A stretch of DNA of 64,000 nt from assembly GCF_009914755.1 (NCBI RefSeq), contig NC_060937.1; one strand, 5' to 3'. Positions within the stretch are counted from its first letter, which is position 1, and each line of letters starts with the position of its first letter. This document shows positions 20,102 to 60,861 of the stretch, piece by piece. Origin of the DNA: the human T2T-CHM13v2.0 reference genome, Homo sapiens. Below the pieces are notes generated by a model. That model searched no databases. It worked only from the letters and a program-made list of their open reading frames with translations, and was not told where the DNA came from. The position numbers and the translations under genes were made by a program.

Positions 20102-23940
<3,839 letters not shown>

Positions 23941-27966: not shown

Positions 27967-28611
27967 TGAGAGGTGAAGCCAGCTGGACTTCTTGGGTCCA
28001 GTGGGGACTTGGAGAACTTTTCCGTCTAGTTAGAGGATTGTAAATGCACCAATCAGCACTCTGTAAAAACACACCAATCAGCGCTCTGTGTCTAGCTAAA
28101 GGATTGTAAATGCACCAATCAGCACTCTGTAAAAACGCACCAATCAGTGCTCTGTGTCTAGCTAGAGGATTGTAAATGCACCAATCAGCATTCTGTAAAA
28201 ATGGACCAATCAGCACTCTGTAGAATGGACCAATCAGCACTCTGTAAAATGGACCAATCAGCAGGACATGGGAGGGGCCAAATAAGGGAATAAAAGCTGG
28301 CCACCTGAGCCAGCAGCAGCAACCCACTGGGGTCCTCTTTCATGGTGTGAAAGCTTTGTTCTTTCACACGTCATAATAAATCTTGCAGCTGCTCACTCTT
28401 TGGGTCTGCACTACCTTTATGAGCTGTAACACTCATCATGAGGGTCTGCAGCTTCATTCCTGAAGTCAGCAAGAATCATGAACCCACCAGAAAGTACAAA
28501 CTCTGGACAAGCCACCTTTAAGAGCTGTAACACTCACTGCAAGGGTCCGCGGCTTCATTCCTGAAGTCAGCGAGACCACGAACCCACCAGAAGGAACCAA
28601 CTCTGGACACA
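27967..28611 (+). mobile_element. Solo LTR12 (ERV9 family, LTR12F-like)
   Basis: TG...CA termini (TGAGAGGTGAAGCC...GGACACA), 4-bp TSD ATTT at 27963-27966 and 28612-28615, tandem CCAATCAG units. Confidence 0.92.
28049..28296 (+). promoter_or_regulatory. LTR12 U3 CCAAT-box (NF-Y) array and AATAAAA TATA-like box
   Basis: Eight ccaatcag copies between ~28049 and ~28261, then gggaataaaagctgg. Confidence 0.65.
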
Positions 28612-55828: not shown

Positions 55829-56393
55829 CTGGAGGTAAAAGAAGTTGCACAAAAGCCATGGCTGAGAAACTTCTTTTTTAACAAATACGATTATTTTTCT
55901 ATTGACCATGAGCATGCATACATACCAATTATTACCCATGAGTAGTACATTCTAAGTTAGTTCTATTTAATTTGCATATTTGAGTGACAACAGTATACAG
56001 TGATATTTGTTATCTGGCATAGAATTTCATTAGATATAGGATATCATTCCAAAATTATCACAGTGGGCACTTAGTTTTAAGTGGAAGCTTGCACTTCCAC
56101 TTAAAGTGAGAAAATATAAGAAAATATAAAACTTGGTATCACATTGGAGGATGCAGATGACACAGGAGGAAAATAAGGAATGAGTTGAGTTTCCAATAAA
56201 CAAAGGTATAATACTAAAAACATTGTACTCACGTCAATAACGATGGAGGAAAGTGACTTAAAATTGTGATGTGCATTTTTCTGTTGCAGGCTTAAGTGTG
56301 TGAAATGAATTACACATAAAATTGGGGACAGGGAGCACTCTAAAAGCGGTCATTCTGCTTACCAATGATATGATTGTATATCTAGAAAACCCT

Positions 56394-57943
56394 GTCCCTC
56401 TCCCGTCTCCCTCTCCCGTCTCCCTCTCCCTCCTCCCTCTCCCTCTCCCGTCTCCCTCTCCCTCTCCCGTCTCCCTCTCCCTCTCCCCGGTCTCCCTCTG
56501 ATGCCACCAAAGTTGTCAAAGCCGAGGCTGGACTGTACTGCCGCCATCTCGGCTCACTGCAACCTCCCTGCCTGATTCTCCTGCCTCAGCCTGCAGAGTG
56601 CCTGGGATTGCAGGTGCCCGCCGCCACACCTGACTGGTTTTTGCATTTTTTGGTGGAGACGGGGTTTCGCCGTGTTGGCCGGGCTGGTCTCCAGCTCCTG
56701 ACTGCGAGTGATCTACCTGCCTCCGCCTCCCGAGGTGCCGGGATTGCAGACGGAGTCTCGCTCACTCAGTGCTCAACATTGCCCAGGCTGGAGTGCAGTG
56801 GCGTGATCTCGGCTCGCTGCAACCTCCACCTCCCAGCCGCCTGCCTTGGCCTCCCAAAGTGCCGAGATTGCAGCCTCTACCCGGCCGCCACCCCGTCTGG
56901 GAAGTGAGGAGCGTCTCTGCCTGGCCGCCCATCGTCTGGGATGTGAGGAGCCCCTCCGACTGGCCGCCCAGTCTGGGAAGTGAGGGGCGCCTCTTCCCGG
57001 CCGCCATCCTGTCTAGGAAGTGAGGAGTGTCTCTGCCCGGCCGCCCATCGTCTGAGATGTGAGGAGCCCCTCTGACCGGCCGCCCAGTCTGGGATGTGAG
57101 GAATGCCTCTGCCCGGTGGCGACCCCGTCTGGGAATTGAGGAGTGTCTCTGCCCGACCACCACCCCATCTGGGAGGTGAGGAGTGTCTCTGATCGGCTGC
57201 CCCGTCTGAGCAGTGAGGAGCCCCTCCGCCCGGCAGCTGCCCGTCTGCGAAGTGAGGAGCCCCTCCGCCTGGCAGCCGCCCCGTCCGGGAGGGAGGTGGG
57301 GGGTCAGCCCCCGCCCCGCCAGCCGCCCCGTCTGGGAGGGAGGTGGGGGGCGCCTCTGCCCGGCTGCCCCGTCTGGGAAGTGAGGAGCCCCTCTGCCAGG
57401 CTGCCACCCCGTCTGGGAGGTGTACCCAACAGCTCATTGAGAATGGGCCATGATGACGATGGCGGCTTTGTCGAATAGAAAAGGGGGAAATGTGGGGAAA
57501 AGAGATCAGATTGTTACTGTGTTGGTGTAGAAAGAAGTAGACATGGGAGACTCCATTTTGTTCTGTATTAAGAAAAATTCTTCTGCCTTGGGATGCTGTT
57601 AATCTATAACCTTACCCCCAACCCCATGATCTCTGAAACATGTGCTGTGTCCACCCAGGGTTAAATGGATTAAGGGCGGTGCAAGATGTGCTTTGTTAAA
57701 CAGATGCTTGAAGGCAGCATGCTCCTTAAGAGTCATCACCACTCCCTAATCTCAAGTACCCAGGGACACAAACACTGAGGAAGGCCGCAGGGTCCTCTGT
57801 CTAGGAAAACCAGAGACCCTTGTTCACATGTTTATCTGCTGACCTTCCCTCCACTATTGTCCTATGACCCTGCCAAATCCCCCTCTCCGAGAAACACCCA
57901 AGAATGATCAATAAATACTAAAAAAAAAAAAAAAAAAAAAAAA
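56394..57943 (+). mobile_element. Full-length SVA (older subfamily, likely SVA_B), antisense to VWA8
   Basis: CCCTCT-type hexamers 56394-56490, Alu-like domain to ~56870, GC-rich VNTR (gtgaggagcccctctgcccggccgcc) to ~57420, SINE-R, AATAAA at 57910 and poly(A) 57920-57943. Confidence 0.95.
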
Positions 57944-57949
57944 GAAACA

Positions 57950-58249
57950 GGCCGGGCGCGGTGGCTCACGTCTGTGGTCCCAGCACTTTGGGAGGCCGAG
58001 GCTGGCAGATCACAAGGTCGGGAGTTCGAGACCGGCCTGGCCGGCATGGTGGAACCCTGTCTCTACTAAAAATACAAAAAATTAGCTGGGTATGGTGACA
58101 TGCGCCTGTGATCTCAGCTGCTCGGAGGGCTGGGACAGGAGAGTCGCTTGGGTGTGGGAGGCGCAGGTTGTAGTGAGCTGAGAATGTACCACTGCACTCC
58201 AGCCTGGGCGACAGAGCAAGACACCGTTTCAAAAAAAAAAAAAAAAAAA
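57950..58249 (+). mobile_element. AluS-type element with excess A>G changes
   Basis: GGCCGGGCGCGGTGG start, dimeric body, A-tail, flanked by aaaagaaaca. Confidence 0.9.
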
Positions 58250-58255
58250 GAAACA

Positions 58256-58551
58256 AGCCAGGCACGGTGGCTGACGCCTGTAGACCCAGCACTTTGAGGT
58301 GGGCAGATCACCTGAGATTGGGAGCTCAAGACCAGCCTGGCCAACATAATGAAGCCCCATCTCTACTAAAGATACAAAACAAAACAAAAATTGGCCGGGC
58401 ATGGTGGTGCGTGCCTGTGGTACCAGCTACTTGGGAGGCTGAGGCAGGAGACTGGCTTGAACCCGGGAGGAGGAGGTCGTAGCGGGCCGAGATTGTGCCA
58501 CTGCACTCTAGCCTGAGCAACGGAGCAAGACTCCATCTCAAAACAAACAAA
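58256..58551 (+). mobile_element. AluS-type element
   Basis: Dimeric Alu with A-rich linker and tail. Confidence 0.9.
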
Positions 58552-58608
58552 GAATAAGACCTAGTGTTAGCTAGCACAACAGGGTGGCTATAGTTTAAAA
58601 AAAAAAAA

Positions 58609-58754
58609 ATATATATATATATATATATACCTCTCTCTATATATACGTGTATATATATATACGTATATATAAAATATATACACGTATATATATGTATATA
58701 TATAAAATATATATACACCTCTATATATACGCATATATATGGTGTGTGTGTGTG
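58609..58754. repeat. (TA)n/(TG)n compound microsatellite
   Basis: Directly visible. Confidence 0.9.
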
Positions 58755-59043
58755 TGAGACAGAGTGTTGCTCTGTCGCCCAGGCTGGAGACCTCAGTGGC
58801 GTGATCTTGGTTCGCTGCAGCCTCTGCCTCCCGGGTTCGGGCGGTTCTCCTGCCTCAGCCTCCCGGGTGGCTGGGATTGCGGGTGCCCGCCACCATGCCC
58901 AGCTAATTTTTTTTTGTATTTTTGGTAGAGATGGGATTTCGCCAGGTTGGCCGGGCTGGTATCGAGCTCCTGGCCTCAGGTGGTCTGCCCGCCTCGGCCT
59001 CCCGGGGTGCTGGGATTGCAGGCGTGCGCCACCGTGCCTGGCC
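58755..59043 (-). mobile_element. Antisense AluS-type element with heavy plus-strand A>G changes
   Basis: Runs tgagacagag...gcctggcc. Example change: CCCAAAGTGCTGGGATTACAGG reads CCCGGGGTGCTGGGATTGCAGG. Confidence 0.9.
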
Positions 59044-60861
59044 GTAAAAAATAATTTAATTGTACATTTAAAATAACTAAAAGAGTTCAACTGGATTGTT
59101 TGTAACACAAAAGATAAATGCTTGAGGTGATGGATTTCCCTTTAACCCTGCTGTGAATATTATGCATTGCATGCCCGTATCAAACATCTTATGTGCCCCA
59201 CAAGCATATAAACTTACTATGCACCTGCAAAAATTAAAAATAAACTTGAAAACATAAAAACAAAACAAAAATCAACATTAAAGAAAAGTTTTCTGTAAAA
59301 AAAAAAAAAAAGAAAACCCTAAAGTCTGATAAATGAATTCAGTAAAGTCTCAGGTTACAAAATCAATATACTCAAATCAGTAACACTGCTATATGCCAAC
59401 AATGACCAAGCTGAGAATCAAATCAAGAACTCAATCTCTTTTACAATAGCTGCACACACACAAAACCCTAGGAATATACTTAACCAAGGAGGTGAAAGAG
59501 CTCTACAAGGAAAACTACAAAACACTGATGAAAGAAATCATAGATGACACAAACAAATGGAAACACATCCAATGCTCATAGATGAGGAGAATCAATATTG
59601 TGAAAATGACCATACTGCCCAAAGCAATCAACAGGTTCAGTGTAATTCCCATCAAAATACCATCATTATTTTTCAAAGAACTAGAAAAAACAATCCTAAA
59701 ATTCACGTGGAACCAAAAAAGAGCCCAGATAGCCAAAGCAATACTAAGCAAAAGCAGCAAATCTGAAGGCATCACATTACAGGGCTTTAAATTATACTAA
59801 GGCTATAGTTACCAAAACAGCATGGTACTGGTATAAAAATAGGCACGTAGACCAATGAGACAGAATAGAGAACCCAGAAATAAAGCCAAATATGTGGATG
59901 TGGTGAAAAGGGAACATTTACACTGCTGGTGGGAATGTAAATTAGTACAACCACTATGGAAAACAGTATGGAAAGTCCTTAAAGAACTAAAGTAGGTCTA
60001 CCATTCAGTCCAGTAATCCCATTAATAGGTATCTACCCAAAGGAAAAGAAGTCATTATATTAATATGAAAAAGACAACATGCACACACGTTTATAGAAGC
60101 ACAATTAGCAATTGCAATGATATGGAACCAACCTAAGTGTCCATCATCAACCAATGAGTGATAAAGAAAATGTATATATACACCATGGAATACTACTCAG
60201 CCATAAAACTGAATAAAATAATGGCATTTGCTGCAACTTGGATGGAGCTGGAGGCCATTATTCTAAGGGAAGAAACTCAGGAATCGAAAACCAAATACTG
60301 TATGTTCTCACTTATAGGTGGGAGCTAAGCTATGAGGACACAAAGACATAAGAGTGATATAATGGACTTTGGGGACTAAGGTGGGGAAGGTTCTCAGGGG
60401 GGTGAGGGATAAAAGACTACATACTGGGTACAGCGTATACTGCTCGGGTGATGGGTACACTATCTCAAAATTCACCACTAAAGAACTCATCCATATAACC
60501 AAAAACCACTCGTACCCCAAAAACTATTGAAATAAAAAAATTTTAAAAGGGGTCATTCTTTTCCTTCTATTGCACATGTAGGGGCTGAGAAGAGCCATAT
60601 AGGACATACAAGGGGGCCCAGGTTGTAGAATCCCAATCTAAATCCAAGTGTCCTAAAAATATGTAGGGGACAAATTTTAAATTTTATATGGTGGAGAAAA
60701 GGATTTTAGGCATGATGGGTGTTTTCTCAGTTCAATACTTGAATGTGTGTGAAACAGTCTTTTTCTTTCCTGTGTATCTGCTGCTGCTTCAATGAATCCT
60801 TTTAGTCTTTACCTAACCTGATAGAAGCTTTCATAATACAGAGGTAATAAAATATATTTAC

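What the first reader, a model, noticed from the sequence alone, without database searches (positions are those of the whole stretch)
57950..59043. Fossil A-to-I hyper-editing: Alus in the SVA cargo carry strand-specific A>G clusters
Seen: compared by eye with the AluS consensus, the three cargo Alus have roughly 13, 8 and 19 A>G changes, all on the plus strand (the SVA transcript strand) whichever way the Alu points. Sense Alu1: TGTAAT>TGTGGT, GTCAGG>GTCGGG, ACCAGCCTGGCCAACATGGTGAAA>ACCGGCCTGGCCGGCATGGTGGAA, GCTACT>GCTGCT, TTGAAC>TTGGGT. Antisense Alu3: TTCAAGCGATT>TTCGGGCGGTT, CGAGTAGC>CGGGTGGC, ATTACAGG>ATTGCGGG, CCCAAAG>CCCGGGG. The Alus I compared elsewhere in the window (7595, 19427) show mainly CpG decay instead. 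Established: inverted Alu pairs form dsRNA that ADAR edits, and reverse transcriptase copies inosine as G. Inference: the SVA read-through RNA folded Alu1/Alu2 onto Alu3, was hyper-edited and was then integrated by L1 ORF2p. That writes RNA edits into germline DNA and creates new CpGs. The single antisense Alu can pair with both others and is the most edited, as this model predicts.
Basis: partly seen in the sequence, partly recalled or inferred. Interest (0 to 1): 0.88.

Follow-up and report, generated by a model that had tools for sequence, protein, structure and literature searches.

The report
RNA edits fossilised in human DNA
A jumping-gene (SVA) insertion in the human genome carries a copied stretch whose three Alu repeats hold dozens of one-strand A-to-G changes that the original stretch lacks; these are likely RNA edits made by the enzyme ADAR that were likely written into inherited DNA when the RNA was reverse-transcribed.

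Summary
Confirmed. The 1.35-kb cargo behind an SVA has one donor, G000:C5:16.990-16.992 Mb. Against it the three cargo Alus differ by 61 A>G versus 8 T>C on the SVA strand. Polarised with other Alus, 41 of 160 conserved A became G versus 3 of 137 T>C (p=1.6e-9). The old-repeat spacer and tail (2 of 129 A) and the SVA's SINE-R (0 of 139) are spared. The Alus are predicted to form long inverted duplexes. SVA and cargo share one target-site duplication. Best reading: ADAR hyper-edited the RNA and L1 machinery integrated it (about 0.88). Against: no SVA lies at the donor, no 3'-G preference is seen, and this SVA's own Alu-like part gained 1 A>G in 52. New lead: the Alu-like domain common to the SVA relatives scored has 13 of 35 A>G versus 2 of 51 T>C against ordinary Alus, and none of 11 A's behind a G changed, so the SVA founder may itself be an edited RNA. 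Ten literature searches found no report of either; two likely papers were not held.

The parts
56384..56393 (+). left copy of the 10-bp target-site duplication
   Evidence: the flanks on both sides match neighbouring positions of another repeat copy at window 21404-21825; 'old L1 ORF2' is a recalled label
56390..56499 (+). SVA CCCTCT hexamer array
56495..56870 (+). SVA Alu-like domain (antisense Alu fragments); family-wide A>G skew against ordinary Alus, only 1 private A>G in this copy
56873..57422 (+). SVA VNTR, period 40
57423..57919 (+). SVA SINE-R with AATAAA at 57910; 0 private A>G in 139 scored A
57920..57943 (+). internal poly(A), 24 nt, between SVA and cargo
57950..58231 (+). cargo Alu1, sense; 14 of 60 conserved A changed to G
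58257..58541 (+). cargo Alu2, sense; 8 of 60 conserved A changed to G
58545..58596 (+). 5' piece of an old repeat (L1MA 3' end, label recalled) split by Alu3; 1 A>G in 23 A
   Evidence: adjacent to the tail piece in 7 of 8 other copies
58609..58754 (+). (TA)n/(TG)n microsatellite, shorter than in the donor; not scored
58755..59043 (-). cargo Alu3, antisense; 19 of 40 conserved + strand A changed to G
59044..59295 (+). 3' piece of the old repeat with AATAAA at 59239 and ATTAAA at 59277; 97% identical to the donor; 1 A>G in 106 A
59297..59311 (+). terminal poly(A), absent from the donor
59311..59320 (+). right copy of the target-site duplication

Best explanation
The three Alus in the cargo carry 41 strand-specific A>G changes that their donor lacks, and these are likely A-to-I edits made by ADAR on an inverted-Alu duplex in an SVA read-through RNA that was then likely reverse-transcribed into the germline by L1 ORF2p. 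Shown: one donor; A in the donor and in other Alus; strand bias; confinement to the Alus; one insertion bounded by poly(A) and a target-site duplication. Predicted: the Alu duplexes. Inferred: an SVA once sat at the A-rich site just upstream of donor Alu1 and was later lost or never fixed; its transcript ran 1.6 kb on to a downstream poly(A) signal; ADAR edited about a quarter of the conserved Alu adenosines in this one molecule; reverse transcription read inosine as G (established biochemistry, recalled). The edits are probably a one-off mutational imprint with no present function.
For: Single donor at 97% in the tail, next hit 85% (40 of 2116 candidates scored); same donor for the spacer, 94%. 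A>G 61 vs T>C 8 (binomial p=3e-11). Polarised 41 of 160 vs 3 of 137, p=1.6e-9. Alus 61 of 216 A vs spacer plus tail 2 of 129, p=8e-12. Predicted duplexes Alu1:Alu3 -455 and Alu2:Alu3 -430 kcal/mol vs -141 for the same-sense pair; 19 of 19 and 13 of 14 raw A>G in Alu1 and Alu2, and 28 of 28 in Alu3, lie in or beside the predicted helix (nearly all unedited A's do too, so this is necessary, not discriminating). 5' U or A favoured: 24 of 65 vs 17 of 95, p=0.01. The edited strand is the SVA strand, opposite to the host VWA8 transcript (hub annotation). SVA and cargo look the same age: 1.9% private change in the SVA, 1.6-1.75% per lineage in the cargo without A>G. The cargo has two poly(A) tracts, as described for 3' transductions in PMC4859970 (passages).
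Against: No SVA VNTR or SINE-R match in the 20 kb around the donor, and no sibling copy among the scored hits. No 3'-G enrichment, although PMC3197674 gives a 5'-G deficit plus 3'-G excess as the motif (passages). The SVA Alu-like domain is predicted to pair with Alu1 but has 1 private A>G in 52 A vs 14 of 60 in Alu1 (p=7e-4); zero hits in the 22 remaining A columns of its first fragment has p of about 0.003 at Alu1's rate. Site concordance with other skewed Alus is weak once pattern-forced columns are removed (p 0.013 to 0.55 over six pairs). Polarity rests on Alu panels of 44, 18 and 38 copies, not on ape orthologues.
Confidence: 0.88

Rival explanations
1. Same ADAR origin, but the join is a template switch: ORF2p began on an edited non-SVA transcript from the donor and jumped to the poly(A) of a separate SVA RNA. 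This competes only with the 'read-through' step of the best explanation.
For: No SVA at the donor; the SVA Alu-like domain is almost unedited despite predicted pairing with Alu1; the A-rich junction offers microhomology.
Against: The cargo starts exactly at a short A-rich site that resembles an L1 endonuclease target (recalled consensus), not at the much longer A-tail of Alu1. Missing source SVAs are reported elsewhere (PMC9132208, passage).
Confidence: 0.28
2. The edits were written in after insertion, by gene conversion with cDNA from an edited transcript of the inserted locus itself, or by deamination of DNA in an RNA:DNA hybrid.
For: A second skewed Alu (L075, C8:43.54 Mb; 10 of 38 vs 0 of 57) is absent from its parent intron, which simple retrocopying of the parent does not explain.
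Against: It needs an extra, undocumented step. The locus is transcribed by VWA8 on the other strand, which would give T>C on +. All three Alus keep their donor-specific changes.
Confidence: 0.07
3. Ordinary DNA processes: CpG decay in the donor, GC-biased gene conversion, transcription-linked asymmetry, APOBEC3 on cDNA, error-prone reverse transcription, or Alu subfamily diagnostics.
For: 20 of the 61 raw A>G are at variable columns or are donor-derived.
Against: 41 remain after their removal. Other weak-to-strong changes total 10 (8 T>C, 1 A>C, 1 T>G). Non-Alu parts of the same cDNA are spared. APOBEC3 would give G>A on the sense strand (established, recalled). 58 background Alus never exceed an imbalance of 5.
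Confidence: 0.03
4. Assembly or sequencing error.
For: Only one assembly could be searched.
Against: Errors would not be limited to A>G on one strand inside Alus. At 58153-58154 the pattern fits an edit that made a CpG which then decayed, implying age.
Confidence: 0.01

Closest known systems
SVA 3' transduction (described in PMC4859970, passages read; Xing et al. 2006 cited there, not held)
   Same: Full SVA, internal poly(A), downstream cargo from one locus, second poly(A), target-site duplication.
   Different: No source SVA at the donor in this assembly; the cargo carries a dense one-strand A>G imprint.
ADAR ultra-editing of inverted Alus in human RNA (PMC3197674, passages read)
   Same: [quoted passage not shown]
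   Different: Here the changes are in genomic DNA against a paralogous donor; the 3'-G excess is not seen.
APOBEC3 DNA editing of retroelements, SVA included (Carmi et al., as summarised in PMC4982230, passage read)
   Same: A host deaminase leaves clustered, strand-specific changes in an integrated copy.
   Different: Different enzyme, substrate and sign: C>U on cDNA (G>A on the sense strand) versus A>G on the RNA strand limited to duplex Alus.
Retroprocessing of edited RNA in plant organelles and kinetoplastids; A>G hypermutation of retroviruses (all recalled, no call)
   Same: RNA edits become DNA through reverse transcription.
   Different: Other editing systems or viral genomes, not ADAR-edited host Alus moved by L1 in the primate germline.

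Membership tests
SVA retrotransposon | [quoted passage not shown] | tested here: met
   Alu-like domain 93-97% identical to 39 other genomic copies
L1-mediated insertion | target-site duplication and terminal poly(A) around the whole unit | tested here: met
   10-bp duplication at 56384 and 59311; poly(A) absent from the donor
SVA 3' transduction | cargo maps to one other locus and has two poly(A) tracts | tested here: met
SVA 3' transduction | source SVA directly upstream of the cargo at the donor | tested here: not met
   no VNTR or SINE-R match in 20 kb; so filed as 'works like' a 3' transduction, not as a proven one
SVA 3' transduction | cargo begins with the source element's 3' target-site duplication | tested here: inconclusive
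   starts at a short A-rich site that also flanks Alu1; one AAAC unit shorter than in the donor
ADAR hyper-editing | A>G dominates, on the transcript strand only | tested here: met
   41 vs 3
ADAR hyper-editing | confined to long duplex-forming sequence | tested here: met
   61 of 216 vs 2 of 129; duplexes are predictions; exception: the SVA Alu-like domain is predicted paired but barely changed
ADAR hyper-editing | 5'-G depleted | tested here: met
   7 of 48 vs 34 of 112, p=0.047, weak; 5' U or A favoured, p=0.01
ADAR hyper-editing | 3'-G enriched (a preference, not a requirement) | tested here: not met
   16 of 62 vs 25 of 98, p=1.0
ADAR hyper-editing | the same sites are edited in present-day RNA from the donor | not testable with these tools
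   no RNA-seq or REDIportal access
Known Alu subfamily diagnostics | the G's are shared with the donor Alu and with other Alu copies | tested here: not met
   the donor has A, and at least 70% of panel Alus have A at all 41 sites; Dfam consensuses not available

The most novel reading that the evidence does not exclude
Write-back of ADAR edits into the primate germline is a recurring mutational process, and the SVA family itself descends from a hyper-edited RNA. The Alu-like domain common to the SVA relatives scored differs from ordinary antisense Alus by 13 of 35 A>G versus 2 of 51 T>C, with 0 of 11 A's behind a G changed versus 13 of 24 others (p=0.002). If so, part of the G- and CpG-richness of every SVA's Alu-like domain was written by ADAR, and genomes hold a datable record of ancient germline editing. 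Further candidates lie at C15:26.50 and 26.56 Mb and C8:43.54 Mb.
Probability: 0.55. Interest if true: 0.9.

Novelty: new variant of a known kind. Interest (0 to 1): 0.78.

Why it matters
It is a clean donor-versus-copy case of RNA edits apparently becoming inherited human DNA. A 2016 review says that roles for ADAR editing in Alu subfamily evolution had 'not yet been determined' (PMC4982230, passage). The case gives a simple genome-wide test: compare every transduction and intron-retaining retrocopy with its donor for one-strand A>G inside inverted Alus. It implies that heavily inosine-containing RNA can complete L1-mediated integration in the germline, that editing can add CpGs (10 of the 41 changes follow a C), and that such copies look older than they are: A>G makes up 61 of the 91 Alu differences. 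The same signature in the shared SVA Alu-like domain would bear on how SVAs arose. Nothing suggests a present function at this locus.

Tried and rejected
GC-biased conversion, CpG decay, APOBEC3, RT error and subfamily diagnostics: rejected. Extra editing in this SVA's body, which would have shown that SVA and cargo were one RNA: not found (1 of 52, 1 of 41, 0 of 139; 29 relatives, one of which gave no alignment at 85% or more). A source SVA or sibling copy: none (only the best 40 candidates are scored). The C16:54.28 Mb hit is 89% over 281 of 321 bases; I read it as an SVA next to an unrelated Alu and did not fetch it. Shared hot spots among skewed Alus: significant at first, mostly lost after removing five pattern-forced columns. 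Genome-wide pattern for edited antisense Alus: 63 matches. Of 30 loci cut out, 1 was strongly skewed (L075); of 5 more fetched, 2 were skewed arrays (L079, L080), 1 was an SVA and 2 were unremarkable; 27 others were not examined. L075 as a replicate: rejected as a clean case because its Alu is absent from the parent intron. A pattern for edited sense Alus gave 31 matches, none examined. One frame of the L075 exon part was translated and was uninformative. Literature: searches (listings only) showed no paper reporting this; two likely papers were not held.

Full report
Anatomy. Window 56384-59320 is one insertion. It has a CCCTCT array (56390-56499), an Alu-like domain, a 40-bp VNTR (56873-57422) and a SINE-R ending in AATAAA and 24 A. 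The Alu-like domain is 93-97% identical to 39 other genomic copies. Behind it lie a sense Alu1 (57950-58231), a sense Alu2 (58257-58541), a short piece of an old repeat, a (TA)n tract, an antisense Alu3 (58755-59043), the rest of the old repeat and a second poly(A). The two old-repeat pieces are adjacent in 7 of 8 other copies; 'L1MA' is my recalled label. A 10-bp duplication at 56384 and 59311 bounds the whole unit, and the flanks match neighbouring positions of another repeat copy in the window. By the hub annotation this is a VWA8 intron, and VWA8 is on the minus strand.

Donor. The cargo tail has one close match, G000:C5:16990418-16990670 minus, 97%; the next is 85% (40 of 2116 candidates scored). 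The spacer points to the same place. I take C5 to be chromosome 5 because C13 is chromosome 13. The donor holds all three Alus in the same order and continues without a poly(A), so it is the parent. No SVA VNTR or SINE-R sequence lies in the 20 kb held around it, and no sibling copy of SVA plus cargo appeared among scored hits.

The observation. Donor-to-copy differences in the Alus are 61 A>G and 8 T>C out of 91. Donor CA versus copy CG can be CpG decay in the donor, so I polarised each column with panels of 44, 18 and 38 other Alus. I dropped 13 A>G at variable columns and 7 that look donor-derived; 2 other differences could not be polarised. That leaves 41 copy-derived A>G at 160 conserved A and 3 T>C at 137 conserved T (p=1.6e-9): 14 of 60, 8 of 60 and 19 of 40. 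Spacer and tail show 2 A>G in 129 A against 61 in 216 (p=8e-12). The window's other five long Alu hits are balanced, and 58 background Alus never exceed an imbalance of 5.

Signature. Edited A's avoid a 5' G weakly (7 of 48 vs 34 of 112, p=0.047) and favour 5' U or A (24 of 65 vs 17 of 95, p=0.01). A 3'-G excess is absent (16 of 62 vs 25 of 98), although PMC3197674 lists it as part of the motif (passages). The unedited donor Alus are predicted to form duplexes of -455 (Alu1:Alu3) and -430 kcal/mol (Alu2:Alu3), against -141 for the same-sense pair. CpG counts rise from 10, 6 and 5 in the donor to 15, 9 and 18 in the copy, partly through donor decay; 10 of the 41 strict changes follow a C.

Mechanism. 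Most likely an SVA once sat at the A-rich site upstream of donor Alu1 and read through to a poly(A) signal in the old repeat (AATAAA 59239 or ATTAAA 59277). ADAR edited the Alu duplexes, and L1 ORF2p copied inosine as G during integration. The one-strand bias excludes GC-biased conversion (other weak-to-strong changes total 10). The spared non-Alu parts exclude RT error. The sign excludes APOBEC3 on cDNA and editing of the VWA8 transcript. SVA and cargo have similar private divergence, 1.9% and 1.6-1.75%; at recalled primate rates that is very roughly 10-20 million years, so apes should share the insertion.

What does not fit. The source SVA is missing; a missing source is reported for another transduction group (PMC9132208, passage), but a template switch onto a separate SVA RNA remains possible (0.28). 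In a fold of SVA plus unedited cargo, Alu1 pairs with the SVA Alu-like domain (221 bp) and Alu2 with Alu3 (248 bp), yet the SVA domain has 1 private A>G in 52 A (p=7e-4 against Alu1). Half of its 22 remaining A columns follow a G, which lowers but does not remove the expectation. Both A-rich flanks of Alu1 are one AAAC unit shorter in the copy than in the donor; I cannot explain this.

A wider lead. Against 53 ordinary Alus, the Alu-like domain conserved across the SVA relatives has 13 A>G at 45 conserved A and 2 T>C at 64 T (p=1.6e-4). A second scoring gives 13 of 35 vs 2 of 51 here and 11-14 A>G in the relatives listed. None of 11 A's behind a G changed, against 13 of 24 others (p=0.002). 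At those 13 columns G occurs in 0 to 7 of 53 panel Alus; the column with 7 may be a subfamily difference. The two shorter Alu fragments of the domain have 1 A>G each. The panel is a mix of subfamilies, not the true parent, so this is a lead. A genome-wide pattern (63 matches; 35 examined) also turned up tandem Alu arrays at C15:26.50 and 26.56 Mb with 11-15 A>G of about 40 vs 1-3 T>C in most units, and one Alu at C8:43.54 Mb with 10 of 38 vs 0 of 57; the pattern itself forces at least two of these G's in the matched Alu. The C8 Alu is absent from its parent intron, so it is not a clean replicate. Site concordance among these cases is weak after removing pattern-forced columns.

Known and new. 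SVA 3' transduction (PMC4859970, passages), Alu ultra-editing in RNA (PMC3197674, passages) and APOBEC3 editing of SVA DNA (PMC4982230, passage) are each known. That review states that roles for ADAR editing in Alu subfamily evolution had not been determined. Ten searches (listings only) showed no report of ADAR-edited Alus fixed in human DNA by retrotransposition, or of an edited origin for the SVA Alu-like domain. The library lacks most subscription papers, two likely ones were not held, and I read no supplements, so prior description cannot be excluded. Reverse transcription of edited RNA in organelles and A>G hypermutated retroviruses are recalled analogues.

Verdict. Observation confirmed; ADAR edits written into germline DNA, about 0.88; new variant of a known kind; interest 0.78.

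Noticed in passing
window 56521-56752; L018-L046: The Alu-like domain shared by the SVA relatives scored shows 13 of 35 A>G vs 2 of 51 T>C against ordinary Alus, with complete 5'-G avoidance (0 of 11): possibly an edited founder RNA.
   Followed up: partly
L079:2186-3954 (C15:26.50 Mb) and L080:1693-4157 (C15:26.56 Mb): Tandem arrays of Alu left-arm pieces and antisense Alus; most units have 11-15 A>G of about 40 vs 1-3 T>C on one strand. The arrays are about 82% alike; L077 and L078 share their flank.
   Followed up: partly
L075 (C8:43.54 Mb) vs L083 (C18:12.505 Mb): A partly spliced retrocopy (AFG3L2-like, label recalled) about 90% identical to a C18 intron. It holds a CpG-rich Alu with 10 of 38 A>G vs 0 of 57 on the gene strand that is absent from the parent intron.
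   Followed up: partly
window 57944-57949 and 58250-58256: Both A-rich flanks of Alu1 are one AAAC unit shorter in the copy than in the donor.
   Followed up: no
window 58609-58754: The (TA)n tract is about 280 bases shorter than in the donor and is self-complementary.
   Followed up: no
31 genomic matches listed: Sense Alus with the same double A>G as cargo Alu1 near their 5' end; not examined.
   Followed up: no
window 28024-28263: 66-bp and 24-bp tandem repeats with CCAAT-like units (LTR12-type, label recalled).
   Followed up: no
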